A stretch of DNA of 55,777 nt, filler included, from Sphacelaria rigidula (Eukaryota): the NCBI GenBank assembly GCA_964200075.2. It is 3 parts of 3 records of this genome, joined end to end, with 100 filler letters (N's around TTAATTAATTAA, not from the genome) between each part and the next. Parts side by side here need not be neighbours in the genome. Positions count along the whole stretch, not along the records: positions 18,627 to 37,152 come from CAXNAA020000845.1; 2 more parts are not named here. One strand, written 5' to 3'. The position numbers and the translations under genes were made by a program. The notes beneath the pieces were generated by a model. The model was not told the DNA's origin. It saw only the letters and a program-made list of their open reading frames with translations, and searched no databases. Positions 18,527 to 54,401 of the stretch are shown here, in pieces. Each line of letters starts with the position of its first letter. Within the stretch, counting starts at the first letter, position 1.

Positions 18527-18626
18527 NNNNNNNNNNNNNNNNNNNNNNNNNNNNNNNNNNNNNNNNNNNNTTAATTAATTAANNNNNNNNNNNNNNNNNN
18601 NNNNNNNNNNNNNNNNNNNNNNNNNN
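18527..18626. other. Artificial contig-joining linker
   Basis: 44 N + TTAATTAATTAA (stops in all six frames) + 44 N. Confidence 0.97.
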
Positions 18627-27653: not shown

Positions 27654-30600
27654 GATCACATTCTTGATATTTTGCATCTTGCACCCGACGAATCGAAGAG
27701 ATGCAACTGCATGCTGCAGCATGGAAACCTGGTCAAGTCCACGAATTCCATGGGGAGCAAAAATTGTAGCTGACGACCGTGCTCTAATGTAGCCAAGAAC
27801 GATAATGTATACCTTTTTCTCGCTTTTGTTTTGAGTAGATTGCGAAGACCCGAAGTACGAGCACCGCAAGCCCATTCTCTGCACTGTCTTGCTTAGATAC
27901 CGTCCGTTATTTCAATCGTTGTTATCAAGAACACACAGCATAATTTCCTTAATGAACAAATACTACGAAAATACCGCGCTCCGATTGCCTAGCGCGTACA
28001 GAAACAGAAAAACAACAAGCATCTGCGATGGAAGATGGCGGTTTGGAATACCGACAGGTACGATGTTTTTGAGCAGAATGTGACCAACATCATTGGAAGC
28101 CTGAGGACGCAAATGGCGGAGAAGTTCGACTCAAGTCCACGACGTGCAGGAGTGCTGACCTCACCCTCGATTACAAAATTTCGGCCAGGTACCGGGGGTG
28201 AGATGAGTCGGTTTCTCGAGACTAAGGATTCATCCCGACGCAGGAAAACGATTAAAAGTATGGTGATGAAATATATGGACTAGAATAAATGGGGGGAAAA
28301 GGGGGGGGGGGGGGGATTGTGCTCGGAACAGCTGCAATTTCGGGAATAGCCCACCAGAGCCGTCCTGTACCCTGAACTGGCCCATCATGGTGAGGTATAC
28401 CTGGTATAAACTTGCCTTGAGCGTCACCGTTCGATACAACGTGCCGATTCGAGCCACTTTTATGCCTTCTGTGGCCATTACTACACCCGTTCATGGACGA
28501 AAAGACGCATGCCTTGACTTTATTCGCACGCGCACAACCTCGCTGTCAACTCTACTCTGAAATCGGTCAAAAATCAAACTGTGTACCTTTTTCTGACCAC
28601 TGTCCATCCCCTTACAGATGGCGCCCGGGAATAAGCAACAATTAGTTGTCGAAAATCAGGCCCGTATTCCCACGCAACACACCAAATCCCACGTAGTTTC
28701 AAAGTTGGAAACAAGGTATGAAGAAACAGTTGAACAATTAAAAACAGCGATCGATGCCCACGAAAGTGAAGGGTAACGTTACCGCTGAGCGTGGTACGGA
28801 GTAGCAAGAAACGATTGAACAACTCCAATCAAGCTTGCTGTACGTGTGCCTGTCTGCATGACCAACGAAAATTTGTGACTCACCGGGTTCTCCCAGACTA
28901 GCCAAACATAGTGATGGAGACAGAAGGAATGATTTGGCTCTTTTTGGAAACGTTTTCCGAGGATCCGCTGTACCCTACTGCACGCCATGGCGTTTCTACC
29001 GCCTCGCTCGGTGGTTTGAACACGCCGGTGAGACCTATCCCATTTTCAACTACGGAAAACGGGGTCAATATTGTTCATACTTTTGCATTTTCCACGCACA
29101 TTTCCCGCATTCTTCTCTTTACTTGGAGAGCTGGACGACCTCTTTCTCGATCATGACACTGTTCGTTTCCACTTCCAGATTTGGAGAAGTGGGCAGCACC
29201 GAAAAACAGTCCCGCTGCTGGCCATCTCATGTATTATATTGCGGAACGTACAGTCGCGATAGTGCCGACGTCGTAACTGACACCATATATATCTAGATAG
29301 TATTTAGCTGTTTTTGGGAGTGACAATGATGATATTGGGCGTTTCGTGGCAAATAGATGGACCGATGAAGCAGACCTCAGAATCAGGACTAACTACAAAT
29401 CAACGCCATTTAATATCGCGAGGCTATATATTTCAAGAAAAGCAGGTAGTGAGCACCTGAGCGCCCACTTGAAGGGAATTTGGGCCTCGAGACCAAATTA
29501 ATCCTTCGACCACCAGGGTGGATCATCTTTTAAATCGGTATCATTTCCACGTGGAGAGTAATTATGAGGCCCTGATAATCTACCCTCGCGGTCGACAGGT
29601 TCAAGCGGGCTTCATCCGCACCCCCTGAGAGGGTGGACGTTAAACGAATCCGCCATGTACAATTTTCTTTACTCCTTCCCACGCTGCTCTTCGATGCAGT
29701 ACGATAATATCCTTTGCACGTCGAGGGATACAGCATCAACTTCGAAGTATTACAGCGCTGCTGCACTCTGCCCATCAGGAGTAGCAGAAGAGTAAAAACC
29801 TGGGCTGCCATCAAGCCACAAGCCATCCACACACTCAGCGAAGAACCGCTTTGGTTTGCTATACACACAAATAGGGTATGAACCACGAAGTACAGTAGGG
29901 TGTAGGCTACAAAGGCTCACTCAACAGAGATGGGCATCACTGCGGGACATCTTTGTTGACTGCGCAATTGTATGCACACGGGTCTGGAGTCAAAAAGATT
30001 TTGCAGTGATGACTGCTAACTTCTGGCATGTGAAAATTGAGTTCTGCACATTTGCGGCGAGTGCGACAATGCGGGATAATCCACGGGAGAGTACATGCAC
30101 CTTCAATTACTGTAAGCGCGTTGGTACATCGTTCCACATACGCGTTACCTGGGCTAGCGAGGAGCTTCGCAAGGCCTACGCGGGGTGCCCTCCGCGCGAT
30201 ACAGCAAGCACTCAAGTGTCCGTCGCTTCTGTACGATATTCACACCGAACAAGGTTTCAGTATCTCATACGCCACGCTGCCTCCTCGATCTTTATCTCGT
30301 TCACCACATGCTTTGCTGGGCACAAGGGGAAGATGAAGGTAGCTGCACGGTCGCTACACCAGCACTGCAGCAGCTGAGCGTCGTACCACGAGGAAAGCCC
30401 GCCGAAGAAGACCGCAGAGGCACCTCTGCTGCTTCTTCCTGCTGTAGTAGCGGCAAGTTCATGTGTGCGGTCTAGGTTAGACAATAGTTGAGCATGAGAT
30501 GGTTTGCAACTTGCATGTCAACATTATACCGCACGGTTTGTGCTAGTCGAAGTCGTTCAATGCGAAACGAAACTTGGGGTTTGAAACGGTTGAAAAATGC

Positions 30601-34745: not shown

Positions 34746-35010
34746 CAGGGGTGTAAATGTTACACGTGCCACAACGTTGCACGTTACGTTTTGGCCGAAA
34801 CGTAACGTGCACATAATTTTTGCTAACTTGATGAACGTAACGTCAATTTTTCAAATGAAGCGTTCACGTAACGTTAATTTTCTTCACGTGCTAAACGAAA
34901 CGTAACGTGAACGTTAAATTGCCCAAACGTTCAAAACACGTGATACGAAATGTTGTAACGTGTAACGGGAAACGTTTTATGTTACGTTATACGTTACATG
35001 AAGCGTTGCA
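34746..35010. repeat. Cluster of ACGT-core motifs (GTAACGT/ACGTTAC) after a CAGGG terminus; probable DNA-transposon subterminal region
   Basis: Begins CAGGGGTGTAAATGTTACACGT, followed by many AACGT/ACGTT copies in both orientations. Confidence 0.6.
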
Positions 35011-35430
35011 CACCTCAAGTTCGCAATGAATTTTGAAATCCTAGGAAAGAAAGTAACTATTATACAACGGTATAAGTACAGGCCGTGTATTTTGCTAACA
35101 GTGCGGTTACAAGTAGAGGCTGCACTTTGTAAACACAGTACAAGTGCGTGCTGTACTTGTGACCTTGTACTACAATACTTTGCAAATACAACAGACAAAA
35201 GTAGACAAGGATAAAATCACCCTGTATTTTGGACATACAGCATTATAGTACGAGGTAGTCAGTCATTTGCTCGCGAGAACGGGAGGCAGGCTCGCATCTG
35301 GCAGCGGTGATGTCGGCAATGTCGTGAGTTCTACACCGTCTTGACTGTAAGGTTCAAGGCTACAAGCAGATGCACGTACATTCATGGTACACGCTGGTTC
35401 ACGCTCATCACCCGGAAAACACTCATCGGC

Positions 35431-35709
35431 AAAACTTCACGCCGTTTTAAGGAGTTATCCATTGAAATTTTGCACGAATGTTCTATGGGTCATTATGCAA
35501 CTTTGCAGGAACGTTTTTTTATTTTTTGACTTTTTTCACCGTTTTTCGAGGGTCCCAGTTTTTTGGAGAAACCTCGACCCAATCTGACCCCCGTAAAACG
35601 GTAACAAGAAAAAACCCGAAAAGCCCCGTTCCTGCAAAGTTGTGCAATGTCCCAAAGCATAGTTGTGCAAAATTTCAGGGTCTGACTCCTTGAAACGGCG
35701 TGAAGTTTT
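35431..35709. mobile_element. Foldback MITE with ~85 bp imperfect inverted arms
   Basis: AAAACTTCACGCCGTTTTAAGGAGTTA…TGAAATTTTGCAC…CAACTTTGCAGGAACG on the left matches the reverse complement of CGTTCCTGCAAAGTTG…GTGCAAAATTTCA…TGACTCCTTGAAACGGCGTGAAGTTTT on the right. Confidence 0.85.
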
Positions 35710-35732
35710 CACACCCTGGACAATACAATATG

Positions 35733-37152
35733 TAATATATATTGCCCGCTCAATATATCGACGCGTCGGGTGGTCAAAATATATTGGGCGAGCAATATGA
35801 TGACACGAGAGAGGGTCAATATATATTGTGCCATCAATATATCAAGGCTCGCGACATGCAATATATATCGACCGAACAATATATCACGACACGCGCCACC
35901 TCAAAATATATTGGCCGAGTAATATGTTGGTGCGAGAAGGCACCAATATATATTTGTCGAGTAATATCTTTGCTGTCACCCGAGGTCAATATATATTGAC
36001 GATTCAATATACTCGACACCTGAAGCGCCAATATATGTTGCCGCCCCAATATGTCGTGCGTCAATGCGTCCAATATATGTTGGGCGGACAATACACGAGG
36101 GGACCGACGGTCACAATACATGTTGGTGTAGCAAAACATATTGATTTTTAACATAGATTGGAAAGTGTATTGGAATTAGTATGGTGCGCAGATCTTTGTT
36201 CGCGGGCGCCATTCAAAGACGTATTTTACATGCCGAAAATGCTCAATGTATTCCTCCGCAAGCGTGTTCAATATATATTGGCTGCACGATGGCTATCCGA
36301 TCAGCGTGCGCAATATATATTGGAAACACAATACTTCTGCATGGTTTGCGTTCAATATATATTTGATAACAATATGCTACGCATCGCCTCGACTCGATAT
36401 ATATTGACACTTCAATACATACACGGCCGGCATGCACAATATACATTGAATGTTTTACTCTCGGAGTAACTGCATGTCCAACATATTTTGACATACATTA
36501 CTTCATGATCATGACACGAGTAATATATGTTGTTGCTTCAATATCTCCGAGGACATCTCAACACAATATATATTGAAAGGACGATATTTGTGCTGGCTCC
36601 AATACAAGTATTGGTATCATATTGGAACGTTTTGTATTGTCCAGGGTATAAGCAACACAGCCCCGGTGACCACGGGGGTACCAAAAGGCGCATATCGACC
36701 CGCGTTTCCTGTCGTCGTGATGTTCAGCCAAGATATTTATATTACATGCTGGAAAGGGGATGGCCGGCCCCGCACAGGTGGCCAGATAGGTATCAGGAGG
36801 CATATATACCGGGTCGCCTCTTCTGTCACCATATTTTCTAACTAGTATACACACACATATATATATATATATCAAACGCATTCGACAACTTTCCGGAGTA
36901 ATGCACGCGAACTTCTGCGGCTCCCTTTAAAGCTTTTCCCAATCTGCACGGGCTCCGGCATCCATCGCGTCTGGATCTCTCCTAAAGCGTACACGATACT
37001 TATAATATCTGATATATTTTGACCGGCCAATGCGTTGTCACCCACGCAGACCCAATATATATATATATATTGACCGGTCAACATGTTCTCATCAATGCGA
37101 CCCTAATATATATTGGTCGTGCAATATGCTGTCGCCCAGGCTGCCCCAATAT
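35733..37152. repeat. Phased array: CAATATATATTG-N6-CAATAT-N18/19, period 42-43 bp, with variable spacers
   Basis: Unit starts at 35733, 35775, 35817, 35859, 35902, 35944, 35987, 36029, 36071, 36114, then 36269, 36311, 36353, 36395, 36437, 36479, 36521, 36564. More units lie near 37050, 37104 and 37147, cut by the linker. Confidence 0.9.
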
Positions 37153-37252
37153 NNNNNNNNNNNNNNNNNNNNNNNNNNNNNNNNNNNNNNNNNNNNTTAA
37201 TTAATTAANNNNNNNNNNNNNNNNNNNNNNNNNNNNNNNNNNNNNNNNNNNN
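37153..37252. other. Artificial contig-joining linker
   Basis: 44 N + TTAATTAATTAA + 44 N. Confidence 0.97.
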
Positions 37253-40002
37253 CCCTTTCGGGCAATCAGGCAGAAGAAATCGTGAATTTGGTGATTTTGA
37301 GTCGTGATGATTTGTCCTAACCGTGAATTTATTAGTATGACGTTCTACGTGTACAAAAACACGCGAGCCGATTATGCGCAAAAGCGATCATTTGGCATAT
37401 TTCCCGAAGATTCGATGATGGGGAATTTCACCGTTAATGCCACTATGTGGTAGGCGATTACTTGAAAATACAGCAGTAGCAGCAATCTCTCCCCATAAGT
37501 TCTTGGTAAATTTGGTTCATTTAATAGGCATCGGGTAACGTTCATGATAGCTCTCCCGTCACGTTCCGACATCCCATTCTGTTGTGGCGTATACGGTGCT
37601 GTATATTCTTGTAAAATTCCCGTCATTTTACAGTATTGTCGAAAATAATATATGTACTCTCCTCCACGTTCAGTCCCGATGCGTTGGACTCGAAGTCTTA
37701 GGGGGATTGCTAGATCTTGGATGAATTTATGGAAGTGTAGATAAGGCCTGATATTTACTTTTGATGAAATATATAACCTTCAATCTACGGAAATAATCAG
37801 AAAATTCAGCCATATATTTAAAACCACCAATTGTCCGAGTCGATTGTCTTCGGGTGATTTTGCTGTGTACTTTCATTGGTCATACAAGTGTCGCATGAAG
37901 TAAGTGTGCCTTCGAAATTTACACCTGATTCTGTAATATTCTTTATACTACGCATAACTTGCGCAGACGGGTGACGAAGTCTTTCGTGCCAGACTTCTGC
38001 TCTTACCTCAGTTGAGTTCATCGAAGGACCTTCGGGCTGTTCTACATCAAAAACTTCAGTTGCATACGCAGTGCCTAACCCAACCCCAGGACTGTCCTAG
38101 GAATGGTGGCAGATGCCAGTGCTGTTCCATGGAAGTTATTCTCTGTTCTTGAACAATTCTCAAGCTAATATTATGCAATTTCCCAGTATTATTATTTGGA
38201 ATTGGAATTTTAAGATCACCTACATCAATGTGTGACTTTGTTGAAAACACTGTTGAAACACCCTTGCTGAGGGCCTCGCAAGGAGAAAATACATGTTCGA
38301 CTAGACCTGGAACTATTACAACGGGAAAACGGACAGAGCGTTCAATACCATTGACATCAGTAACCAATGATTGAAAAATGCCTTTCCCTGTGCCTTGTAA
38401 CATGTGTTTTCCTGCTGCTAATATGCTCATGGGTAGATCAAGCTTAACGAGGTCAAGCATCTCCATTTCAATATTAGGAAGTAGGTGGGAATCCCGAAAG
38501 TGATTGCTGGCTCCGCTGTCCACTACCATCGTGAATGGTTTCGCCACATGCATATCAAGAGAATCTTCTAGATCCCCAGCAAGAAAGGTATGCCCGACTC
38601 CGCTTGGTGGAGAAGGTCCCATGACAGTCGCTGCTGAAGGTGTATTTGATTGCTGGACGTTGGTGTACATAGGTACTGTAGTTGACGTGGGAGTTGTAGC
38701 AACTGTGTTCGCCTGATTGACAGGTCCATAATTCTGTATGTTTCGATGGTTATTATTGCTACTACGATCACGGTTATAACTGTTGTTCCGATCATTACCG
38801 CAGCGAGTATTACTATTAAATCCAGAGCTACCACGTGCGTTCTCATTGTTTATTTGATTTTCACAGTCTGAGTTATCATGTTTATTTGTTTTGTGTAGGC
38901 TACAACACTTAACCTGTCTGCCGTTACGCTGCTTCCTCGATCTGCAGTCACGCATGAGGCGACCAGGTTTCCCGCAATTACAACATTTATTCTGAGATGT
39001 GGTGGAAATCGAAGATGAATCTAGGGGGTGATGATGCATACATGGCACTCTCTTTACCTGCAGATTTTCTCACAGATTTACCACGAGCTAAACGATTGAC
39101 ATATAGATTCCTCATAGCGGATTCGATCTGTGACAGGCTAAAACCAGGGTCTTGTTCAGCGTCGTATTTAATTTGATTGTTATCATCAGTTGGTCCTTCG
39201 ATGGCTACATCTGTTAATCGTTCATCACTGACGCTCTCATGCATATCAGTCAATTCGTCTTTGATTTGATATAAATTTGAGAGGAATACATCCGGGTCCT
39301 CACCCTGCGACATGGTTGAATTGTCTAACTGTCTCATCAGAATTGGATGTCGTTGTTTTGATGAATTATGATATTTGGCAATCAAGCCATCCCAAGCTTT
39401 CTTACCGTTAGCAGTCGCTGAACTCTGTGGTCCGAGCCGTAGCATGAAAGTGCTTGCAGGTCCAGTCGTATCTAAATAAAGTATATTGAATAATTGTTCA
39501 TTCGCACGATCGTATGGGACTATTTCATCCTCATTACTAACTCTTCCCCTACTAGTTTTGTCTTCCTCTGAGGTAACGTCCTCTCCTTGAGAACGTGTTA
39601 CTACCGGGCTTGACCTAGTCGTGGATCTATCTTCCACGAACATTCTCATGAATTTCGGTGGGACGGGTTTTACCATTGAGAATTTCCGAAATATTGGGGT
39701 GTGTTGGAGATAAGGCAGCTTCAGTTTTGCCCTTTCACTCCATAAACTCTACGATCTGAATTCCATGACGGTGCACTCTACATCCATAAAAGCTTGATAC
39801 TACAGACTCCTCGACCCAAGCTCTTCACTATTCTGACATGAACAGTTCGACTTGATCCATTCATCAATCCTACGTAACCCTACGGTCAAAACCCGTTCGT
39901 TCTGTATGTTCTACGTTCTACGTTTGTTGCTGTTCATGCTGAACCGTAACTTAATCTACCGCTAAAGTTGTATGCATGTACGAAAAAGATTTCTTTCCAA
40001 CA
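37253..40002 (-). mobile_element. Decayed Ty1/copia LTR retrotransposon (gag, protease, GAG-pre-integrase, integrase); RT/RNase H not in this contig
   Basis: Gag (LFNILYLDTTGPA…GKKAWDGLIAKY…GEDPDVFL), zinc knuckle CCNCGKPGRLMRDC, protease VVDSGASNHF, VWHERLRHPS, and integrase YTAPYTPQQNGMSERDGR occur in copia order, with stops and frameshifts. The terminus TGTTGGAAAG at 40002 (minus) is tentative. Confidence 0.92.
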
Positions 40003-40509: not shown

Positions 40510-40860
40510 AGAAAACACGGTGACAAAAGAGGCGACCCGGTACATCCGCCTTTTGATACCTATTTGGCCACCGGTGCGGGGCCACCCATCTGCTTCACAG
40601 TATGTAATATATCTTGGCTAAACGTCACGATGACAGAAACCGCGGGTCGATATGCGCCTTTTCGTACCCCTGTGGTAACCGGTGCTGTTTTGCTCATACC
40701 CGGGACTACACAATATGTTCCAATATGGTACCAATGCTTTGTATTGGAGACAGAACAAATATTTGCCCTTTCAATGTTATATTGTGTTGAGATGTCCTCG
40801 GAAATGTTGAAGCAACAACATATAGTTCTCGTGCCATGATCGTGAAGTAATGCATGGCAA
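40510..40860 (-). repeat. Second, inverted, diverged copy of the array-bearing repeat, left part
   Basis: Reverse complement aligns with about 36490-36840 (e.g. GAGGACATCTCAACACAATATA, AAAGGCGCATATCGACCCGCG, CCGGGTCGCCTCTT). Confidence 0.9.
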
Positions 40861-40940
40861 TATATATATATATATATAACAAAACATCCATTTTATCTTT
40901 TTCGGCGTTGAAGAGCCTTGGGTGCAGGTGCACTTTTTCA

Positions 40941-43147: not shown

Positions 43148-46100
43148 GGTAAGGCGTTGCGCCCAATTCTTCAGTACCCGAAGGTCCCATTTTCAAGTGG
43201 GCTTCCATTTGGCTTTCATGCCCCATTCGGCCATTCCGCCCAGACTTCATTCGGCTCCCGCGCCCCATTCGGCTATTCTGCCGAAAACACATTTCGACGT
43301 TCACAAATACGCCCGAGAGCTACCTTTTGACGAGCTTGAAAGACGTGTTACATCTATTCGAACACGTGCCAAACGTTTTCACCGTGCCATTACAACTGAA
43401 GACGCCACAATCATGCGAATGTAGCATACACGAACATCCAAGGGCGTACACCGTCGTGGCCGTTTCAAATGTTACAGAAACGCGAAAATGTTACCGCACA
43501 TGACGACCAGTCAAACCACACGATATATGAGGTTGTCACAACGGAAAGCACACACACCACGTAGAAGTGCAAGACTTGGAAGCGAAAATAAGCGCTACAC
43601 CTGAAACCAAACTCAGTTCAAGAGTATCAGCGCAAAACAATAGTAGAGTTGGAGTGAAACAGAATGCCAGACCAAAAGCGAAAAAAAAAACACTGCAGCT
43701 GAGGTCAACAGTCTCAGCAGTAACGGGCCTTCAACCGCCGGTATATCACAGCAGCTCAGTTCAAAAGTAAATTCACGTCATTATACGGGTCGCCTATCTG
43801 ACGCCGTCGCGGCTGCGATTTGGCGGTCTGCTGTTCAGGGCACGGTAACCGCTCATCAATCCGCCGCAATGCGTCATCATATCTTATCACTTCGTAAAAA
43901 CGAAATGCAGACAAAAAGCAACGCGCAAATTTGTTGCTGACCGACGCCGACAACAAAACCCGCGACTTGGCGTTGTGACTTTTGGAAACAACACCGTTTC
44001 CCTGCCTGAAGAGCACAAGCTGAAGTACCCGGTTCTGTCCGATCCAAACAATAAAACATGCAACCATTGCGGTGCAATGCTTTGGGCAGAAGAAACGATT
44101 AGTTGTTGCCGTTCCCAATTTACCTCCATTGCCCAACGCGGTACAAGAATTATACAACCAAACATCAGTGATTAACAATCAACGCCAGTTAAATAGTTTG
44201 TTCTCACGGCACTTGGTGCAAGTCCTTCCGGTTGTTGGCAAGGTCCACCTGGGCAATCCATGCTTACGATGTGCGGTGAGGCTTATCGTCGTACTTTCGA
44301 TGCTGGAAACCTGCACGCCAATGAGACACGACCGACATGTAATACTGCGAGAGTTTATATCTTTGACGGCGAGCAGAGGGCACACGGTGAGAGTCTTGGA
44401 ATCGATCCGTCTATCGTTGATTCAATAAGAAACCTGCTTGATGAATATAATTCCTGGGTTGAATCGTACAGAAGCGCAGTGGACGAGATTGTGCGAAATG
44501 GCCATGATATTCACGATGCCCAAATATGCCTCGGTCCCGTCAATCGAACGACTCATGGACCGATTCTAGGCGAATTACCCACGACGTCTGAAATCGCGGC
44601 GTGCATCTTCCAGGAAGACACAACTCAATTGTTCCGACAAGTGTATACTTTCCCACGCAATAGCGATTCAGGTAGAGCCCGATTCGTACCAATATTTAGC
44701 CCCACTTACGAGCCTCTGGGCTACCCCCTCTAATTTTTCTCGGGCAGTAGTGGTAGATCAAAGGGCACCTGGATACCTGGCAAGGGACCCGTTGATGTCA
44801 CTGTCGGACCCGGCGGGAAAAAGGTACCACTAGCGTAGTATCTCAGACAACGACTGCTCTCCGAGCCCCTCTTTCACAGATTAAGTAGAGTGACACAAGA
44901 GTACCTGTGTGATATGTACTCTCGCTATGAAGAACTGTCCCTCCAGTATTCATCTGCTCCAGCAGGACAGAAAGGTGTTACGACGCACAAGGTGTTGGCA
45001 GATGCACCTCAAGGTGGTCGAATCGGTAAGGTATATTGCCGAAGGGTTTTCACGGTCACCCCCGCCAAAATGAAGGAAAACGTTAGAGATGCTCTAGCAG
45101 TCGTTGCAAGAAAGGGTCGTCCCAGTGCAATATCGTCATGACGTGTGACGGGAACTGGGAAGCGATTCAAGCGAATCTTCTCTACCAGGTCAGACTGCAT
45201 ATCATAGACCGGATTTGTGTGCCAGGGTTTTCAAAATAGAAAAGGACGAGCTATTGAAGGGCCTAAGGAGTGGCCGTATATTTGGTCCGGTTAGCTTTGA
45301 AATGAGTGTCATCGAGTTTCAAGAAAGAGGGATGCCCCACATGCATTTAGTAATTGAATTTCACGGACCCACACCCAATCAGATGGGTGAAATGGACGAA
45401 TGGTGCTGGGCAGAAATTCCTCCCGCTGACCTCAACAACGGAAAATCTAGAGAATAGGTGTTGGATCTCATGGTACACAGGCAATGTGGAAGCCACAACA
45501 TGGCATCGCCGTGCATGCAAGACGACCGTAATCGGCCTGGCGTGAAAGTATGTTGTAAAAAATACCCGCAACCATGGCGCGATGCTGCAGTCGTAAGTGG
45601 CAAAACCGGTAGAGCAGAGTACCGGCGTCGTGATACGGGGGAAAAATTTCAATATAAGCAGAAAGAGAACGGCAAATTTGTCGACGCCTTCGCCACAAAC
45701 CAGTGGATCGCCCCGTACAACATTTGGCTTCTATCCCAATACAAGTGTCATATGTGCTCCGATGTTTGCACTGCCAGCGCTGTAGTCAAATGTATTTACA
45801 AGTACATGAACAAGGGCGCTGGCTTCGTGAAAACAACGATTTTTTGCGGTGGCAATGAAATTGAAGCCTACCGTTCGGCGCGATACGTATCAGCGGCCGA
45901 GGCTGCCTGGCGCCTCCTAGGTTTCCACACCATGGACCGTTACCCTTCCGTATCGTCCCTGCGACTACACCTTCCCGACCTACAACAGGTTGCTGTCGAC
46001 GACTCCCTCCCCCGCACTGATCAACTCTCCGCCGCGTAAAACACACGGTCTGACCTCATTCCTTACCTCGGCAGGCCTACTGAGCCCGCACTTGATTCCC

Positions 46101-46885
46101 TGACTTATCTCGATCATTACGAAAAGTATATAGTTAAAAAAGATCGCAAATCTCGAACCACAGGGACTGTTTTCCAAGACACCTACGGCAGTTTCGTTAC
46201 CCCACGTTCTTCGGGAAAACATGTCGCCCGTGTCGTCGCCATCACACCTGATAAAGGCGATGTGTTCTACCTGCGCCTGATTCTTCAACACAAACCGGCG
46301 AGATCATTCCAACAACTGAGAAGTCATGACGGAACCGTGCATGACACTTTCCAGGACGCCGGCAGAGCTATGGGTATCGTCAAACACGACGACGAGTGTA
46401 AGGATCTGTTTGGAAGAGGCCACTGTGTTCAACACGGGTAGACAACTCTGTCTTGTATACTACAGGGTTATCGGTAGCGTGATGTCAGGGGCACCTAATA
46501 TGTTCATGATAGATGTGCCTGCTGGCACAGGTAAAACGTACACGGAAAGTGTTATTTGCGCTCAACTCAGGGCCCGCTCTAAGTTGGTACTTTGTGTCGC
46601 CAGTACGGGTATAGCTGGTCTGCAGCTGCCCGGAGGTTGGACAGCACATTCCATGTTCAAGCTTCCCCTCGATGATAGAAACGTCAGTGGCGCCATGTGC
46701 AACATCGCTGCCGAATCTCAGCGCGCCGAACTGCTGCGAAATGTGACCTCATCGCTTGGGACGAAATTCCGATGAGTCACCGATTTTCTGTTGAAGGTTT
46801 AAACCGCACCCTCCAAGACCTCATGGGCAACACACAGGTAATGCGCGGTAAGACTGAGTTGCTCAGTGGTGATCTAGGCCAAATA

Positions 46886-47060
46886 GGGCCTGTGGTCAAA
46901 CGTGGTAGCGCCGCCGAAACAATCGATGCCTCCATTATCTCCAGCACGCTTTGGATGCATGTCAACCGGATGTGGGCCTGTGGTCAAACGTGGTAGCGCC
47001 GCCGAAACAATCGATGCCTCCATTATCTCCAGCACGCTTTGGATGCATGTCAACCGGATG
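46886..47060 (+). repeat. 87 bp direct duplication (period 88) inside the helicase
   Basis: GGGCCTGTGGTCAAACGTGG…GTCAACCGGATG occurs at 46886-46972 and 46974-47060. Confidence 0.95.
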
Positions 47061-47129
47061 CGGCTCACTATCTCAAAACGCGATCGCGAGGATGCTTCGT
47101 ACGGTGCCTTTGTGCGTAATATTGGAATC

Positions 47130-47388
47130 TGTGACGGTAGCAGGTTGCTAGTACTGCAGCGTCTAAATGCTGTTGAGGGACTCCCCAGTTCCACTGGCCT
47201 CAAGGCCTCAGTTGTCAGCCTTCACAACACCTTATCATTACCGGGGTGCCTCCTGGGCACATGCGCTCCATAAATTACGTCAGGGTAACACCCCTGTGCC
47301 CATGTCATCATCCATCTCATCACTACAGATCCCAAGTCATCATCCAATCATCACCATCTACTTAACGTGGAGGCGTGATTTCGTCACA
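47130..47388. mobile_element. Solo LTR (259 bp) inserted in the Helitron helicase
   Basis: TGTGACG…CGTCACA termini with a 4 bp TSD AATC (47126-29, 47389-92). Removal restores FVRNIGIGTQPH in frame. Confidence 0.9.
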
Positions 47389-49259
47389 AATCGGAACGCA
47401 ACCGCACAGTACTACTGACGACAGAGTTGACGCCGTGCCCTTAGCATACGTTCCCGACACCTCAAATCAGCCTCTAGGTCCTTTCGTCATCGAGAACACC
47501 GATTCTTTTGAAGATTTAATACACTTCGTCTACCCGGGCATTCTCGACGCGGACCCAGCCGAGTTCAAGACAAGAGCCATTCTATCATCGACAAACGCTA
47601 CCATCGACACCATCAATGAGCATATCCTTAATATTCTCCCCGGTGATCTTCTCACAGCGTACAGTTGCGACTCCGTCGATCCTGTTGAAACTGATGGAAA
47701 CACTTTCGACTTCCTCCCCACTGCTGACCTCAACGCCATTGACGTCGCAGGAACACCGCCACATGCCTTGAATTTGAAGTTGAACTCGATCGTCATGATC
47801 ATTCGAAATCTAAATTTTAAGCAAGGCTTAGTTAATGGACAGAAGGCAATTGTTCGTGGATTTTCCACGCGTGTTGTCCATGTTGAACTACTTGACGGAC
47901 TATCCTCGATCGTACTTATTCCCCGAGTGCGTTTTCAAACTAAAGTTGGCCGAAATGGAATTACTTTCATGCGACAACAGCTACCGCTCCTTGTTTGTTA
48001 CGCGCTCACCATCAACAAAAGCCAGGGGCAAACCCTTTCTAAAATCGGACTTGATTTGAGATCGGACGTCTTTACTCATGGCCAACTTAGCGTCGCACTC
48101 AGTAAAGCGCAGAAGCGATCCGCGATCATGTGCTTGACCTTGCCCTCTCGATTGCGTTGTCATTTACGCCGGACTGCATTTGTTGCTGACATTACTTTCC
48201 CCGCTTTCGTTACGGCTGCAAATGACTCTAACCTTACCTTGCTCCTCCTGCCGCCGCCATACGACGATTACATCGGATGCATCCCTTCAGATGCAAACAT
48301 TCACGACGCCGACGATCGACGACATCCTCATCAGTGCGATGACAATGGCTGGATTGAGGCCAAAGGAACGCCCGACCGCTGAAAATTGTTTCGGATAGTT
48401 GGGACTTCGTACTCCGGCCGTATGTGCCATAGTTGGTCGCGTTGCGAGTACTGTGTGCTACTTGACTGTCACGATGCCACGTGGCGGTTGTCGTGTGCTC
48501 AACTGTCCTGCTATTTCTGGAGCCCGTTTCGTACGATAGGTCATGTCTGTGATGTTGAATACGAGGTTGTCCGTGTTTCGGGGGATATCGGTCGCTACTG
48601 TTGGTCCAGTGTTTTTGCTGTTTATGGACAGCTTTCGCACGACGTGATAGTCTGTCATGTTGAATACGTGGTCATCGTTTACCGTGTTTTGGGAGATATT
48701 GGTCGCTACTGTTGGTCGATTGTTGCCTTACTTCTTCCGTTTCTCTTATATATCCACTGCATTGCGGGTATTGTCTGCTTCGTTGTTGCTCACAAAGGAG
48801 GGGGAGTGAATATTTTTTGCCTTTTCAGTTGCTGTTTCTGGACCCTGTTCCGTACCATGGGCGTTTCCGCGGTGCAATAGTACTGGACTCATGGTTGCGA
48901 ACACCGGTGTGTGTCCCTCGCAAGTCTTTGTGTCCCCGGGTATCGGGTTCCTATTCGTTGTTGTGGGTGGAAGTAGTAAATGAGTGTCTTCGTATCTGTT
49001 CTTCGACGGTGGAGGTAGTCTTTTGCCCGTTCTACCGTATCGGTACAATCGTCAAACCATCATTAAGCCTATTCTTCATATCCTGCCCCCGGGACACGGG
49101 GCTCCATACGCACACAGCGCAATATACTGCACTTAAAGCTATGATCTGTTGGGTCACCTAATGCGAGCAACGATGACGGGTCCTCATGTACTTTGGCTAT
49201 CGATCTCATTGAGTGTGGCGGCGGAAGCCGCCGAACCCCTTGTGTGTGTATATATATAT

Positions 49260-49438
49260 ATATATAAATATATATTGGACATGCTGCTCCGGGAACAGAA
49301 AATTTAATGTATATTGTGCATATCGGCGGTGTATGTATTGAAGTAAGTGTCAACATATATATATATATATATATGTATATCGAGTCGAAGGGATGCGCAA
49401 CATATTGTTACCATAATATATATATATATATATATTGA
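49260..49438 (-). repeat. Second copy of the array-bearing repeat, right part
   Basis: TTGGACATGC…AATGTATATTGTGCAT…GTGTATGTATTGAAGT…TATATCGAGTCGA…CATATTGTTA matches the reverse complement of about 36360-36485. Confidence 0.88.
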
Positions 49439-49964: not shown

Positions 49965-52900
49965 GTGGTTCTATTCGCTAGGACTGAAGAAAAACTGAAG
50001 CTGGTAGCTGACGAGATCAAGGCTGCAGGGGGCGAAGCTCTCGTTGTGGCCGGCGATGCTTCCAAGGTACGAAGTACTGTACAGCAGTAGCTCTTTTGGG
50101 TCCCCGAGGAATACGAAGATCGCATATCTCCATTGTAGCACTGCGTTCTTTTGGTTTCCTGAGTAGTTTCCTGCTGTTTATTCTCTTGTAATTGCTTTCT
50201 TGTCGTTGCTGGAGCAGGAAGCCGACTGCAAGAACATGGTGGACATGGCCGTGTCTACCTACGGCGGCCTGCACGTGGCGTTCAACAACCACGGCATCTT
50301 CCAGGGTAGTTCGTTCGCCGAGATGACGGATGAGATGGCGACCTCCCTGCTGGACATCAACCTCAAGTCTCTCATCTTCTGCTTCAAGTACGAGGTACGG
50401 ATATCACAGGATCGATGCAAATGTTTACATTTCTGAACACAATTAGGTGTGAACCTGGCACTGTTTGTTAACCCTTCGACCGCCCGGAATTGTTTTCATT
50501 GTATGCGCAACTGGTATAATGGTTTGCTCGAAAATGTCCCAGACTTGAGTGTTTTTCAGTTGAATCACGTCTTAATTTTTTCCGTTTGCGCAGAAGCCAG
50601 CGTGCGCGAACGGCCGATACACGATCAGTCGGACCAATAATGGCCATCTTTCGCCCCTTTTCCCAGATCACAGAGAAGAACCCTGGGAACCCGAAAAACG
50701 TCAAAAATGACAAAAACAAAAGAAGCATAACTGGCTCTTTTTCTCCGGTTCATCGCTGGCAAACGATAGCTGCACCTAGCCCGAAACCACCAGTTCACAT
50801 TATAGCCTTCAAGTACTTCAAAACAAGCAAAAATCGTCGAAATTTCGCCGAAAATTCACAGATTGAACGGCATTTGGTCGAAATTTGGCCATGTTTGACC
50901 GAGCGATTCTAAGGTTGTAGGTCGATTATTTTGTTCTTGTTTTTTCGAGTGGCCATCTCCACAACTATATATTTCCAACGAACCTAGTCATAACATCGTT
51001 AGCACCCCGGTTGACAAGGTACGGCCTATCCCCCACAACGAACTTTACTTATGGGACAGAAGAAGTATGTACATCTCGTGGGGATTTTTTCGATCGGATG
51101 TTCGGTAATTGTGTGCGCGTTTTGTGTGTGTATTGCGTCGTTGTGTGTATGCTTGTGTGGTGTGGCCGTTCAATTAGTACCCACGTGAAACACTACTCTT
51201 CCATGTCTTTGTTCCTGTCCACCGCACAGTCTGGTCCTTTTCTCCTGTTCGTATCGGTGCTCTCTATTATTTTGTTTCGTCCCATTACCGTCAGCGGGTT
51301 TCCCCCTCGACCGTCGTACCTCGGGTGCGTCCGTCACGTCGTAAACACGGTCGGCTTCGTGAGAGATTAATTGACGTACGACAGTCTGTCCATCGATCCT
51401 CTGGGGTACACTTCCCGCAATTTTTCTTCTTACTTTCTAAACTTTGACTCCTTCGCGTTATTCACGCAGATCCCTGCTATGGCTAAGTCAGGAGACAAAG
51501 GATCCATCATCGTCAATAGCTCTGCGATGAGCATCAGGGCAACCGCCATGTCCAAAATCGCGGGTGTGTACGCAGCAAGTAAGGCGGGCGCGAACATGCT
51601 GGTCCAATACGCGGCGATGGAGGTCAGTTTCTCATTTCCCGAACATGAGACAGATCCCGGTGTACATGCTACTGGGGAGTGAGGGGTGTGTGTGTGTGTG
51701 TGTGAGCAGTTCGGGGTTCGATGGATACGCTGATGTTTACAATCCCCGGTGCGTCTTGAAAATAAACGCGCGAAGGATGAGGATTGCTCAAAGATTCGGG
51801 TTGCGGTATCGGAGAGACAACTTCCAAGCGATGCGTGAGTCCATGTATAAAGCCTTCCGAGCGGGACGCGCACGTGTGTTTTTCTGCTATGTGCAAGGTC
51901 TTTCAGGCGGGACGACTGCGTCGATGTAAGGAGTTGTCCAGGCGGGACGCGTGTTGAGGTGAAAATAAATTGTTGCGGGCGGGGCGCACGTGTCCATGTG
52001 CAAAGTCGGGTGGGGGCGGGAGGGGGCAAGGGCCTTGACCAGCTTTTTGCCCAAAGAAGCTAGTTTGAGAATATCGCCGACGGCGGTAAAGAGTACCTTA
52101 CGTGCTCTCGATGTCGACATTCACAGATGCGTCGTCGGGTGCCCACGAAAGTTCACGCATTATCTTCACACGATGCTTGGCACCTGACGGGGTGCTGTAT
52201 TCTCATTTACCGCTATAGTTGTCTACTGTGTGCCTCCACGCCTTCGCGCCGATCGTGACGACCCAAGACCGTCAAATGATCAAATCAAACACTCCCGCCA
52301 TTCGTATACTTGCTTTGCAAATGCAAATCCATATTCATCAAGGATTAAATCAGCCGTCTCGCGTTTCGTCTTGGCTTCGTCTTTTGTCGTTTTTGTTCTC
52401 TTCTCTCTGCCACGATGTCGAACAGCGGCCACCAGAGAAAAAGACATAGCTTGTCGGGATTTGCGTCCATGTAGTCTCCCCAGACTTATCGTCGATGAAT
52501 TAGTTTGCTGGATGGGTACATTCTCGACCAGTAGCACCGGTTATCTGGGGAAGAAGCGAGGGTGCGCGCCTCGCCTACTGTAGCGAAATCTGAAGAAGAA
52601 AATATGATTCCTCCCGGGCTTCGCAGTCGAAGTTGGTGTATTTTCCTTTTATACCACCGGGGTCCGATGCCCATCTTCAAACAGACGTTCGGTGTGTTTT
52701 CTTACGCCCGCCCGCTCAAAAAGGAACATACCTACAAGCAATGTACATGTCGTGCTCTTTTCGCGTCCGCTTTTCCAAGTACATTCCACATTTGGCGCGT
52801 CTCTTACGCGTGTCTATGTGTTGTTGGTTTCTCGAACAAAACACTGCAGGGAGCGGAGGGCAATGTACGCGTCAACGCTGTCGCGCCCGGACACGTGGTC

Positions 52901-53695
52901 ACCGGGATGTATGCGGGGGTATCCGACGAAGCTCTCGCCGGCGTGATCAAGAACAACCAGCTTATCGAGCGCCCTCTCAAGTCAGAGGAGGTGCGCTAGA
53001 GCATATGGCGGAACGATCACGAGAACATCGAGATATGTTCCATGTATATGCTGGTCTTCTGAAAAAGAGAGGAAGGTTGTGTGTTGCGAGGAAGTCGTGG
53101 AGACTTGTTGTCCGAATGGCATGCATAGTTTTTCATCATTGGTTTTTCACGTCCAGCCCGATCACACGCGAAGCAGTTCACACGAACGGGTGTACTCACC
53201 TGGCAGTACAGCTGAGCGTGACAGAGTTCCTCCTCTTCGCCTCTTCCTGCATGGTGAATTGGCGTGTGGTTTGGTCGCTCTTTCTGTCCTGTTGTGAACA
53301 TGCGGGGAACGGTCGAACCGCTGCACAGGCACAAAAACTGCGACAGGGTACCCCGTCTTGACCCACTGCTTTGGGTTTGACCGTTTCGTGTCCATTTTAC
53401 TGTCGTCAGAGTCCCCGCGTCGGCATGGAAAAAAATCAGTTTCGCATGTAAATCATTCACCCTTGAAAAACAAATCCAAATAGAAGGAAGAATGCCTGCC
53501 CCCCGTCGCTCTCCGCCGTCCATGCCGATAATCTCGCCCGACACTCAATGCCGGTCCCCACGTGCCACGCTACATTACCCTGCCGTCGTGCGTTTTCAGA
53601 TCGCTAAGGCGGCGTTATTCCTGGCCTCTGATGATGCTTCCGCTGTCACGGGATCCATCTGGAGTGTCGATGGTGGATGGGCGAACAAGGCTTGA
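49965..53695 (+). CDS. Classical short-chain dehydrogenase/reductase; last five exons, cofactor-binding first exon absent
   Basis: In-frame CAG/GT exons 49965-50066, 50218-50394, 51470-51622, 52850-52990, 53600-53695. Motifs: YGGLHVAFNNHG, GSIIVNSS, YAASK, VRVNAVAPG, LFLASDDASAVTG…VDGG, then stop. Confidence 0.95.
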
Positions 53696-54242: not shown

Positions 54243-54401
54243 GGGGGGGGGGGGGGGGGGGGGGGGGGGGGGCGGGCTTTCGCGTTTGGTGTGGATTAGG
54301 TGGCGTGGTGGTTCCAGAGAAACTGGACATATGNNNNNNNNNNTTTTTGTTGGGGCTTTTAAACATAGACCGAGGAGGAGGGGCTGGGGTGGGTGGGGGT
54401 G

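What the first reader, a model, noticed from the sequence alone, without database searches (positions are those of the whole stretch)
35733..36590. Helically phased palindrome array with unique spacers
Seen: at least 18 units of CAATATATATTG-N6-CAATAT-N18/19 at a strict 42-43 bp period. The motif and spacing are conserved while the more GC-rich spacers all differ, unlike an ordinary minisatellite. 42 bp is about four B-DNA turns, so the sites fall on one helical face. A diverged second copy in contig 3 keeps recognisable spacers in the same order over the part it covers. Inference: a dispersed element carrying a selected array of protein-binding sites (transposase subterminal array, iteron-like or chromatin-positioning scaffold), or an array processed into small RNAs. 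No cas-like gene is visible. I recognise no described family.
Basis: partly seen in the sequence, partly recalled or inferred. Interest (0 to 1): 0.75.

Follow-up and report, generated by a model that had tools for sequence, protein, structure and literature searches.

The report
Phased palindrome array inside algal transposon
The array is real: it is the repeat-filled body of a very abundant mobile element of a brown alga, in which a 12-base palindrome and its exact 42-base spacing were kept while everything between drifted, which points to a row of docking sites for a DNA-binding protein.

Summary
Eighteen units of CAATATATATTG-N6-CAATAT-N18/19 lie at 42/43-bp steps in two blocks (35733-36143 and 36269-36605). 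A third block (37011-37152) runs into the contig end.

Across units, pairwise identity is 0.87 in the 12-mer and 0.60 in the 6-mer. In the spacers it is at chance, 0.26-0.28.

The array is not a solitary locus. Contigs of a public run of the coded organism A lay on the stretch 11,454 times, and two other organisms hold it with the same spacers in the same order. Two partial copies sit in contig 3. A translated copy is filed as a Sphacelaria rigidula protein.

Many copies begin at 35710 with differing flanks. An exact 16-nt inverted repeat brackets blocks A and B. Between copies, motif and spacer decay equally, so the motif and spacing were kept by selection in the transposing lineage.

Best reading: phased cis-acting binding sites, probably for the transposase or an accessory protein, in a non-autonomous DNA transposon of unresolved superfamily. 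Binding itself is inferred. This is a new family of a known kind and of moderate interest.

The parts
35710..35733 (+). Left terminus of the mobile element (CACA...) followed from 35713 by the 5' arm of the inverted repeat (ACCCTGGACAATACAA...)
   Evidence: table 7: 79 contigs of run X1 have unlike letters before 35710 (agreement 0.4, so the flanks differ), and 153 have unlike letters behind 35709; inverted repeat I4, 35713-35733 / 36627-36647, 21 nt, 90% complementary; 16 of 16 exact.
35733..36143 (+). Array block A: 10 units of [12-mer palindrome]-N6-[CAATAT]-N18/19 at 42/43 bp, plus one extra degenerate 12-mer at 36132
36144..36268 (+). Non-array segment between blocks A and B. It belongs to the family, because contigs of other organisms run through it.
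   Evidence: table 8: X10 record 12 covers 36068-36363 and X11 record 21 covers 35779-36217.
36269..36605 (+). Array block B: 8 units in the same orientation. Units at 36437 and 36479 lack the CAATAT half-site.
36600..36647 (+). Cluster of half-sites (CAATAC-AA-GTATTG, CATATTG, GTATTG) ending in the 3' arm of the inverted repeat (36627-36647)
36648..36842 (+). Non-array segment colinear with the array in other copies. It holds a small hairpin (5-bp stem, 36661-36677).
   Evidence: the contig-3 copy runs through to 36842 at about 85% identity; no likeness beyond 36842 in that copy. table 8: records of X1, X6, X10 and X11 run through 36650; the hairpin appears in the centroid fold, but the fold of the region as a whole is not better than shuffles (z +0.92).
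36849..36872 (.). (CA)n(TA)n microsatellite inside the repeat
   Evidence: notes that reads are cut at 36842-36881.
36873..37010 (+). Non-array segment, also repeated in the runs and colinear in some copies
   Evidence: table 8: X1 record 8 covers 36530-36976, X6 record 32 covers 36682-37026, X10 record 16 covers 36802-37031.
37011..37152 (+). Array block C: at least 3 units in the same orientation. One palindrome is expanded to (AT)n. Spacers are visibly related to each other. The block is cut by the contig end.
   Evidence: table 7: the X10 loose end at 37062 continues with a further unit.
40510..40865 (-). Partial copy (end of block B and the right-hand segment), cut on the array side by (TA)n
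49258..49423 (-). Partial copy (about 3 units of block B), flanked on both sides by (TA)n expansions

Best explanation
The array is the non-coding body of a very abundant, non-autonomous mobile element of a brown alga. The element is most likely a DNA transposon, but its superfamily is unresolved.

The element starts at 35710. The array begins 23 bp inside that terminus and continues in at least three blocks to the contig end.

The array grew by tandem duplication of a 42-bp unit. In the lineage that kept transposing, three things were held by selection while the spacer sequence drifted to saturation:
- the palindromic 12-mer CAATATATATTG,
- the half-site CAATAT(RT) 6 bp further on,
- the 42-bp spacing, about four helical turns.

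The most likely mechanism is as follows. Each palindrome binds a dimer of a sequence-specific DNA-binding protein, either the transposase or an accessory protein of the still unidentified autonomous partner. The extra half-site gives a third contact. The constant phasing puts all sites on one face of the helix, so bound proteins can cooperate or wrap the DNA into one nucleoprotein assembly. That assembly would mark the element and help bring its ends together.

Shown here: the array, its phasing, the differential conservation, the high copy number, the terminus, and the equal decay of motif and spacer after insertion.

Inferred: selection for binding, the identity of the binder, and the cooperative assembly.
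For: 1. Motif against spacer. Pairwise identity among the 18 units is 0.865 (12-mer), 0.597 (6-mer), 0.264 (N6) and 0.278 (N18).

2. Spacing. All 16 within-block intervals are 42 or 43 bp, although the spacers are at chance identity. Between copies, indels arise at about 4 per 49 substitutions. Saturated spacers of constant length therefore imply selection on spacing (inference).

3. No mutational shelter for the motif. Between this copy and the two in-window copies, mismatches are 13/116 in motif columns and 21/147 in spacer columns. Among the 26 best-supported differences from the family majority that fall inside the two blocks, 12 are in motif columns (46%, against 43% of columns; my count, table 3, which shows 40 of 426 rows).

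4. The family majority is closer to the perfect motif. All 8 listed differences inside 12-mers change toward CAATATATATTG: 35905, 36037, 36137, 36396, 36444, 36482, 36487, 36521 (table 3).

5. Mobile and abundant. 11,454 contigs of run X1 lay on 35300-37100 at 80% identity or more, and about 40-110 contigs (counting capped at 128) carry the alternative letter at each listed array position. Organisms B and C hold the array with 15/358 and 20/439 differing letters and the same spacer order (tables 1, 3, 8). A translated copy is an NCBI 'unnamed protein product' of Sphacelaria rigidula, 73% identical.

6. Terminus. Loose ends with differing flanks lie at 35709/35710 (table 7). An exact 16-nt inverted repeat sits 3 nt inside the terminus, with its partner at 36632-36647.

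7. Growth by duplication. Neighbouring units of block C share 17-20 of 30 bases.

8. Precedent. The piggyBat left end carries three composite sites (a 6-mer plus an imperfect palindrome bound by a dimer of C-terminal domains) at a 44-bp step, and its authors note that several transposons need arrays of subterminal binding sites (passages of PMC11707139). In Ectocarpus, KDZ families have 'complex termini featuring tandem repeats' (supplementary table of PMC12477816).
Against: - No binding protein, transposase or autonomous partner was found. The contig ends inside block C.
- The right terminus and the target-site duplication are unknown, so the class of element is not proven.
- Twenty-one or more sites over 1.4 kb is far more than in the classical subterminal arrays I know of (recalled).
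- The inverted repeat brackets only blocks A and B, while copies run colinearly past it. The architecture is therefore not that of a simple TIR element.
- The count in point 3 of the evidence for rests partly on a truncated table (40 of 426 rows) and on only two partial in-window copies.
- The in-window Helitron remnant and copia gag are not linked to the array by any evidence.
Confidence: 0.55

Rival explanations
1. A decayed minisatellite carried passively inside a transposon. The units are relics of a tandem duplication, and the motif looks conserved for non-selective reasons, such as lower mutability of A/T bases or slippage regenerating the (TA)n core.
For: Units of block C are visibly related to each other (17-20 of 30 bases). 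Spacers of blocks A and B keep a faint likeness (6.87 vs 6.37 +/- 0.11). The palindrome core does slip: (AT)n expansions sit exactly at motif positions at 37053-37072 and in both contig-3 copies. Internal tandem repeats are common in Ectocarpus transposons (supplementary table of PMC12477816).
Against: Between copies the motif decays as fast as the spacers (13/116 vs 21/147), so there is no mutational shelter. Slippage would vary the length of the core. It would not preserve the CA...TG flanks, the separate CAATAT half-site, or the constant 42/43-bp step. The identity contrast of 0.865 against 0.27 is too large for a two- to three-fold rate difference (inference).
Confidence: 0.15
2. The motifs act in RNA. 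The element is transcribed (or is a retroelement), and the self-complementary 12-mers pair within or between transcripts for dimerisation or packaging, or the array is a precursor of small RNAs.
For: Any two palindromes can pair. The transcript of 35710-36650 folds far better than shuffles (z -7.2, 0 of 20 shuffles). Transposon-derived small RNAs are reported in Ectocarpus (passages of PMC12477816).
Against: The good fold follows automatically from repeated palindromes and shows nothing more. A 12-mer made only of A and U is a weak pairing element. Constant helical spacing has no obvious meaning in RNA. There is no Rfam family. The terminus and inverted repeat look like those of a DNA element.
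Confidence: 0.1
3. The sites serve a host or episome function rather than transposition. Options are a phased platform for a host transcription or chromatin factor (enhancer-like or nucleosome-positioning), or a tethering, partition or origin-like array comparable to the plasmid F sopC site or the EBV oriP family of repeats (both recalled), which helps an extrachromosomal intermediate persist.
For: The architecture is that of such arrays: a palindromic site once per about 42 bp, all on one helical face. Four units (168-170 bp) are about one nucleosome repeat (arithmetic; the repeat length in brown algae is not known to me). A giant Ectocarpus transposon carries a ParB-like DNA-binding gene (passage of PMC12477816).
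Against: There is no evidence for an episome, an origin or a partner gene. The elements are dispersed in very many decaying copies, which is what a transposon cis-site predicts. Host co-option of so many copies is unlikely.
Confidence: 0.1
4. A CRISPR-like adaptive array that acquires spacers.
For: A repeat-and-unique-spacer look only.
Against: This is a eukaryotic (brown algal) genome. The same spacers in the same order are copied in many places and in three organisms. The conserved part is 12 + 6 bp, not a 23-55 bp repeat (the repeat length is recalled). No cas-like domain was found in the 70 ORFs scanned. There were 0 matches in viral contigs for the two-unit pattern.
Confidence: 0.01

Closest known systems
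Subterminal transposase-binding arrays of DNA transposons: piggyBat left end (PMC11707139, passages read) and En/Spm TnpA 12-bp motifs (recalled)
   Same: Short conserved motifs are repeated close to a transposon terminus, with non-conserved DNA between them. In piggyBat the site is composite (a 6-mer plus an imperfect A/T-centred palindrome bound by a dimer) and recurs at a 44-bp step, very close to the 12-mer + 6-mer at 42 bp seen here.
   Different: piggyBat has 3 such sites in about 120 bp, whereas here there are at least 21 over 1.4 kb or more. The piggyBac hallmark TTAA is absent: the flanks of the CCC...GGG repeat are CACA and TATA, and the family boundary is at 35710. No transposase is known for this element.
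HINE / DINE-1, non-autonomous Helentrons (PMC4067079, passages read)
   Same: A subterminal inverted repeat lies 2-4 nt from the 5' end (here 3 nt). Central tandem repeats lie between the two arms. A small palindrome follows the 3' arm (here 36661-36677). The 5' flank is T-rich (TTTT before 35710). Copy number is very high and there is no coding capacity. A Helitron-type Rep/helicase remnant lies in the same window.
   Different: In HINEs the 3' end lies 38-60 bp after the 3' arm. Here, copies stay colinear for at least 195 bp, and in several runs about 380 bp, beyond it, into a further array block. The hairpin region does not fold better than chance. No empty site or partner sharing the ends was found.
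Brown-algal giant DNA transposons with repeat-rich ends: KDZ-3/4/5/N1_Ec32, DNA9-N3_Ec32, EnSpm-2_Ec32 and hAT-2_Ec32 of Ectocarpus (supplementary table of PMC12477816, rows read through)
   Same: The host group is the same. [quoted passage not shown] Here the terminus reads CACAC and the inverted repeat is 21 nt.
   Different: None of the three motif strings searched occurs in the readable supplements. The consensus FASTA files could not be read. The 8-bp target duplication expected for KDZ or hAT is not seen around 35710/36650 (GAAGTTTT vs AGCAACAC). The listed KDZ termini (GGGTG, GGGGC and so on) differ.
Plasmid F sopC and the EBV oriP family of repeats (both recalled from memory, not tested)
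   Different: In those arrays the whole unit is conserved, not only the site. They serve partition or tethering of an episome. Nothing here indicates an episome.

Membership tests
Transposable element (dispersed, mobile repeat) | Many copies at different genomic places, with a common boundary and differing flanks | tested here: met
   11,454 contigs of X1 were laid, and 79 contigs have unlike, poorly agreeing letters before 35710; two further partial copies in the window.
TIR (cut-and-paste) DNA transposon | Terminal inverted repeats at both true ends | tested here: inconclusive
   The 16-nt exact / 21-nt 90% inverted repeat starts 3 nt from the left end. Its partner at 36627-36647 is internal, because copies continue past it. 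The true right end is outside the contig.
TIR (cut-and-paste) DNA transposon | Target-site duplication flanking the element | not testable with these tools
   The right terminus is not in the window. No whole genome is held. No relative was found in the metagenome or viral collections.
piggyBac superfamily | TTAA target duplication next to CCC...GGG termini | tested here: not met
   CCCTGG at 35714 is preceded by CACA, and CCAGGG ending at 36646 is followed by TATA. The family boundary is at 35710.
hAT superfamily | 8-bp target duplication and short TIRs | tested here: not met
   For the inverted-repeat-bounded unit 35710-36650, the 8-bp flanks are GAAGTTTT and AGCAACAC. For a longer element this is not testable. 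The CACAC terminus resembles hAT-2_Ec32 by the curators' note only.
En/Spm (CACTA) and KDZ | CAC-type or family-specific termini, subterminal repeat arrays, 2-3 bp (EnSpm) or 8 bp (KDZ) duplication, and the matching transposase | tested here: inconclusive
   The terminus reads CACAC, and a repeat array begins 23 bp inside it. The duplication is not testable. No KDZ, EnSpm or other transposase domain was found in the 70 ORFs scanned.
HINE / non-autonomous Helentron | subTIR 2-4 nt from the 5' end; central repeats; 3' subTIR 38-60 bp and a palindrome 8-35 bp from the 3' end; insertion in TT | tested here: inconclusive
   The 5' subTIR distance (3 nt), the central repeats and a 5-bp-stem palindrome 14 nt after the 3' arm are present. 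However, copies are colinear well beyond the predicted 3' end. The insertion site was seen once only (TTTT before 35710).
Plain (neutrally decaying) minisatellite | All columns of the unit diverge alike | tested here: not met
   0.865 / 0.597 in the motif columns against 0.264 / 0.278 in the spacers. TRF sees only 2.5 units.
CRISPR array | Identical repeats of about 23-55 bp, acquired spacers that differ between lineages, cas genes, a prokaryotic host (features recalled) | tested here: not met
   The host is eukaryotic. The spacer order is fixed in all copies. No cas-like domains were found.
Known RNA family | A match to an Rfam covariance model at gathering score | tested here: not met
   0 matches in the whole window.

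The most novel reading that the evidence does not exclude
The array is not a mere transposase landing strip. It would be a eukaryotic counterpart of plasmid or viral 'centromere-like' arrays (sopC or oriP-FR type). A mobile element of brown algae would use 20 or more phased palindromes to build a long cooperative protein filament. That filament would tether, partition or replicate an extrachromosomal intermediate, or it would define a previously undescribed superfamily whose transpososome needs kilobase-scale wrapped ends.
Probability: 0.07. Interest if true: 0.8.

Novelty: new member of a known kind. Interest (0 to 1): 0.38.

Why it matters
If the reading is right, this family is an unusually clean natural experiment. 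The spacers are mutationally saturated while the site and the phase stayed fixed. It therefore gives a ready-made consensus site, half-site geometry and spacing rule for an unknown DNA-binding protein of a brown-algal transposon.

The family is a major repeat of the genome and will affect assembly and annotation. The contig breaks inside it, and a copy is annotated as a protein in a public Sphacelaria record. The palindromes also seed (AT)n microsatellites.

It does not open a new category. Arrays of subterminal binding sites and repeat-rich transposon ends are known, including in brown algae.

Tried and rejected
- **Whole genome.** None is held (error). Full-length copies, the right terminus, empty sites and the autonomous partner could therefore not be sought.
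- **Public collections.** The two-unit pattern gave 0 loci in viral contigs. In metagenome contigs it gave 2 loci, L001 and L002, which are ordinary 21-bp and 42-bp tandem repeats unrelated to this array.
- **Literature.** The 12-mer as a text string is in 0 papers of the library. It and two terminus strings are in none of the 5 readable supplements of PMC12477816. That paper's two consensus FASTA files and one large table cannot be read here, and they may bear on whether a related family is catalogued.
- **Earlier findings of this scan.** Nothing was found by place, sequence or words.
- **Expression.** No RNA holder is listed. Run X6 is only guessed to be RNA. Its contigs cover the array, but I draw nothing from that.
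- **Higher-order repeat.** A BLAST self-match at a 126-bp offset (68% over 230 bp) suggested 3-unit blocks. Permuting the unit order gives p = 0.14 for offset 3, so this is not established.
- **Neighbouring MITE-like repeat.** I considered that it had inserted into the element with a CACCC(T)GGA duplication. I rejected this because the loose-end consensus of other copies shows that the left stretch belongs to that repeat (table 7).
- **Right end at 36842.** The contig-3 copy loses likeness there (score 35, against shuffled mean 31.8 and maximum 47). Records of X1, X6 and X10 cross it (table 8), and a microsatellite sits there, so this is not accepted as the terminus.
- **Coding.** ORFs across the array are short, and the 43-bp units shift the frame relative to the motif. 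The palindrome has no stop codon in any frame. I rejected this reading.
- **Structure.** The RNA fold of the array (z -7.2) follows automatically from the repeated palindromes. The DNA fold of 36600-36860 is no better than chance.
- **Other array-like clusters.** The half-site cluster at 29001-29500 (4 sites) is not an array.
- **ORF 8542-10659.** It looks like a host gene and not a transposase: no Pfam family, 0 matches among solved structures, and only weak Atlas leads to VPS13/BLTP-like families.
- **Pfam coverage.** Of 188 ORFs of 90 aa or more, 15 were scanned and 55. The 55 were chosen from the 97 ORFs of 100 aa or more beyond position 18626. I dropped shorter overlapping and antisense frames and the frames inside the array.
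Full report
**What is there**

The window is several contigs joined by runs of N (18527-18626, 37153-37252, 54334-54343). The finding lies at the end of the second contig.

The 12-mer CAATATATATTG, allowing up to 2 mismatches, occurs 28 times in the window. Dinucleotide-preserving shuffles give 1.37 +/- 1.22, and 0 of 100 shuffles reach 28. Nineteen of the hits lie between 35733 and 36575.

- Ten hits follow each other from 35733 to 36114, with an extra one at 36132.
- Eight follow each other from 36269 to 36564.
- The 16 within-block steps are 42 bp (12 times) or 43 bp (4 times).
- After N6 (once N5) comes CAATAT, with at most one mismatch in 14 of 18 units, usually followed by RT.

The half-site CAATAT/ATATTG occurs 36 times in 35710-37152 (1443 bp), against 39 times in the other 54,334 bp.

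First, the run is interrupted once, by a non-array segment at 36144-36268. Second, a third block of at least three units in the same orientation starts at 37011 and is cut by the contig end at 37152.

**Motif against spacer**

Pairwise identity among the 18 units is 0.865 in the 12-mer columns and 0.597 in the 6-mer columns. It is 0.264 and 0.278 in the N6 and N18 spacers, which is chance level. Spacers are 55% G+C and motif columns 20%.

With shifts of +/-2 allowed, the N18 spacers match a little better than their shuffles: 6.87 against 6.37 +/- 0.11 of about 18, and 0 of 500 shuffles reach the observed value.

A 126-bp self-match hinted at three-unit blocks, but this is not significant when the unit order is permuted (p = 0.14).

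In block C, neighbouring units are plainly related, sharing 17-20 of 30 bases.

So the array grew by tandem duplication, as a minisatellite does. In the older blocks the spacers have since drifted to saturation, while the motif and the unit length have not.

**It is a very abundant mobile element**

No whole genome is held, so I used public runs and laid the contigs of four of them on 35300-37100.

- In run X1 of the coded organism A, 11,454 contigs lay on the stretch at 80% identity or more: 1079 at 99% or more, 2566 at 95-99%, 4569 at 90-95% and 3240 below 90%.
- At each listed array position, about 40-110 contigs carry the alternative letter (counting is capped at 128).
- Runs of two other coded organisms hold the array with the same spacers in the same order. 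X10 record 10 covers 35709-36066 with 15 other letters. X11 record 21 covers 35779-36217 with 20.
- The tool warns that summed depth is not a copy number, so I give none.

Two partial copies lie in the third contig of the window, both on the minus strand and both truncated at (TA)n runs. 40510-40865 is 84% identical to 36483-36839, and 49258-49423 is 71% identical to 36355-36498.

The translated array (35804-36148) finds an NCBI 'unnamed protein product' of Sphacelaria rigidula at 73% identity. This is another copy that a gene caller mistook for a gene. The only other named relative of anything in the window is an Undaria pinnatifida protein, for a host-like ORF. The source is therefore a brown alga.

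**Ends**

In X1, 153 contigs diverge behind 35709 and 79 diverge before 35710, and the loose letters agree poorly (0.53 and 0.40, table 7).

The stretch to the left (about 35389-35709) is a different, even more abundant MITE-like repeat with 83-nt inverted arms.

The array element thus begins at 35710 (CACA...). Three bases further in starts a 21-nt inverted repeat (35713-35733 with 36627-36647, 90% complementary), whose core ACCCTGGACAATACAA is exact on both sides. It brackets blocks A and B.

It does not mark the right end. The contig-3 copy and contigs of X1, X6, X10 and X11 run colinearly through 36650. Some run on to 36976-37031, that is, into block C.

The contig-3 copy loses all likeness after 36842. 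A microsatellite sits there and other copies cross it, so I do not take it as the terminus. The true right end and any target-site duplication are outside the contig.

**Why the motif must have been selected**

If A/T-only motifs were simply less mutable, they would also be spared in dead copies. They are not.

- Between this copy and the two in-window copies, mismatches are 13 of 116 in motif columns and 21 of 147 in spacer columns.
- Of the 26 best-supported positions inside the two blocks where this copy differs from the family majority, 12 are in motif columns. That is 46%, and motif columns make up 43% of the unit. This is my count, table 3, which prints 40 of 426 rows.
- All 8 listed differences inside 12-mers change toward the perfect palindrome in the majority: 35905, 36037, 36137, 36396, 36444, 36482, 36487, 36521. 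For the 6-mer columns, 3 go toward the motif, 1 goes away from it and 1 is neutral.

The ancestor that spread was thus closer to a perfect array, and this copy has been decaying evenly since insertion. The contrast among units therefore arose before the family spread, in a lineage under selection to keep transposing.

The same holds for spacing. Between copies, indels arise at about 4 events per 49 substitutions. Yet saturated spacers all keep 42/43 bp. In a non-coding, non-autonomous element, what selection can see is cis-acting sites (inference from established transposon biology).

**How it most likely works**

A 12-bp perfect palindrome suggests a dimer. The CAATAT(RT) half-site 6 bp away gives a third contact. 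A 42.25-bp mean step is 4.0 turns of B-DNA, so all sites face one way and bound proteins could cooperate or wrap the DNA.

The array starts 23 bp from the terminus, where transposases and their helpers bind.

The nearest worked example I could read is piggyBat. Its left end has three composite sites, each a 6-mer read by the core domain plus an imperfect A/T-centred palindrome read by a dimer of C-terminal domains, at bp 11, 55 and 99. That is a 44-bp step. Its authors note that several transposons need arrays of subterminal sites for synapsis (passages of PMC11707139).

The steps from 'selected' to 'protein-binding' to 'transposase' are inferences. I put the whole chain at about 0.55.

**Which kind of element**

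This is unresolved.

- *piggyBac.* The CCC...GGG ends of the inverted repeat recall piggyBac, but TTAA is absent and the family boundary is 4 nt further out.
- *HINE / non-autonomous Helentron.* The layout matches the description read in PMC4067079: a subterminal repeat 3 nt from the 5' end, central tandem repeats, the second arm, then a small hairpin at 36661-36677. A Helitron-type Rep/helicase remnant lies at 44839-48382 of the window. However, copies stay colinear far beyond the 38-60 bp that a HINE would allow, and the hairpin region folds no better than chance.
[quoted passage not shown] These are leads only. Their sequences could not be read, and the 8-bp flanks of 35710-36650 do not match each other.

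**Rivals**

- *Passive minisatellite.* This explains the origin of the array but not the differential conservation (0.15).
- *RNA-level role.* Pairing of the palindromes, packaging, or small RNAs. It is not excluded, but the strong fold (z -7.2) follows automatically from repeated palindromes, there is no Rfam match, and helical phasing has no meaning in RNA (0.10).
- *Host or episome role.* An enhancer-like platform, nucleosome positioning, or a sopC/oriP-like tethering array (these two recalled). It fits the architecture but has no supporting evidence (0.10).
- *CRISPR-like acquisition.* Excluded by the fixed spacer order in all copies and by the eukaryotic host.

**Verdict**

The alternatives involving small RNAs or cas are not supported.

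The array belongs to a known kind: transposon ends or bodies filled with phased binding-site repeats, which are also known in brown algae. Here it appears in an unusually long and clean form, in a family I could not find catalogued with the means at hand. Interest is moderate.

Noticed in passing
window 35389-35709: A separate MITE-like repeat directly abutting the array element. It has 83-nt inverted arms (35431-35513 / 35627-35709, 82% complementary). In run X1 its summed depth is higher than that of the array, and there are many 'opposite strands' and deletion joints. No target duplication was recognised.
   Followed up: partly
window about 34748-35015: A stretch packed with short ACGTAACGT / AACGTT-type repeats. 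It begins CAGGGGTGTAAATG... and ends ...GCACACCTC. It looks like another small non-autonomous DNA transposon with subterminal motif repeats (TRF rows at 34954-34997).
   Followed up: no
window 44839-48382 (+): A Helitron-type Rep/helicase gene in pieces across several frames: Helitron_like_N at 44839-45454, PIF1 at 46320-47270, and the Pif1 2B domain in 47366-48382. One array fragment (49258-49423) lies about 0.9 kb downstream. No link between the two was shown.
   Followed up: partly
window 38987-39748 (-) and 37375-37779 (-): A copia-type gag domain (E 1e-6) and a faint integrase hint (E 0.0086, below the cut-off). Together they suggest an LTR retrotransposon remnant next to the 40510-40865 array copy.
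   Followed up: no
window 37053-37072, about 40859-40878, about 49350-49375 and about 49415-49435: The palindrome core has expanded into (AT)n microsatellites exactly at motif positions. Both partial copies in contig 3 are truncated at such runs. The array therefore seeds microsatellites and probably deletions.
   Followed up: partly
window 8542-10659 (-) and 6720-8441 (-): Two long open frames (705 and 573 aa) in a G+C-rich stretch, without a Pfam family. The 705-aa frame has 22 relatives in the protein collection, one of them an Undaria pinnatifida protein, and weak Atlas leads to VPS13/BLTP-like lipid-transfer proteins. It is probably a host gene.
   Followed up: partly
window 51371-53692 (+): Short-chain dehydrogenase/reductase domain pieces in several frames (adh_short, adh_short_C2). 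This is probably an intron-split host gene.
   Followed up: no
window 37153-37252 and 18527-18626: The contig joints are two 44-N runs around a 12-base TTAATTAATTAA linker. They are artificial and not part of the genome.
   Followed up: yes
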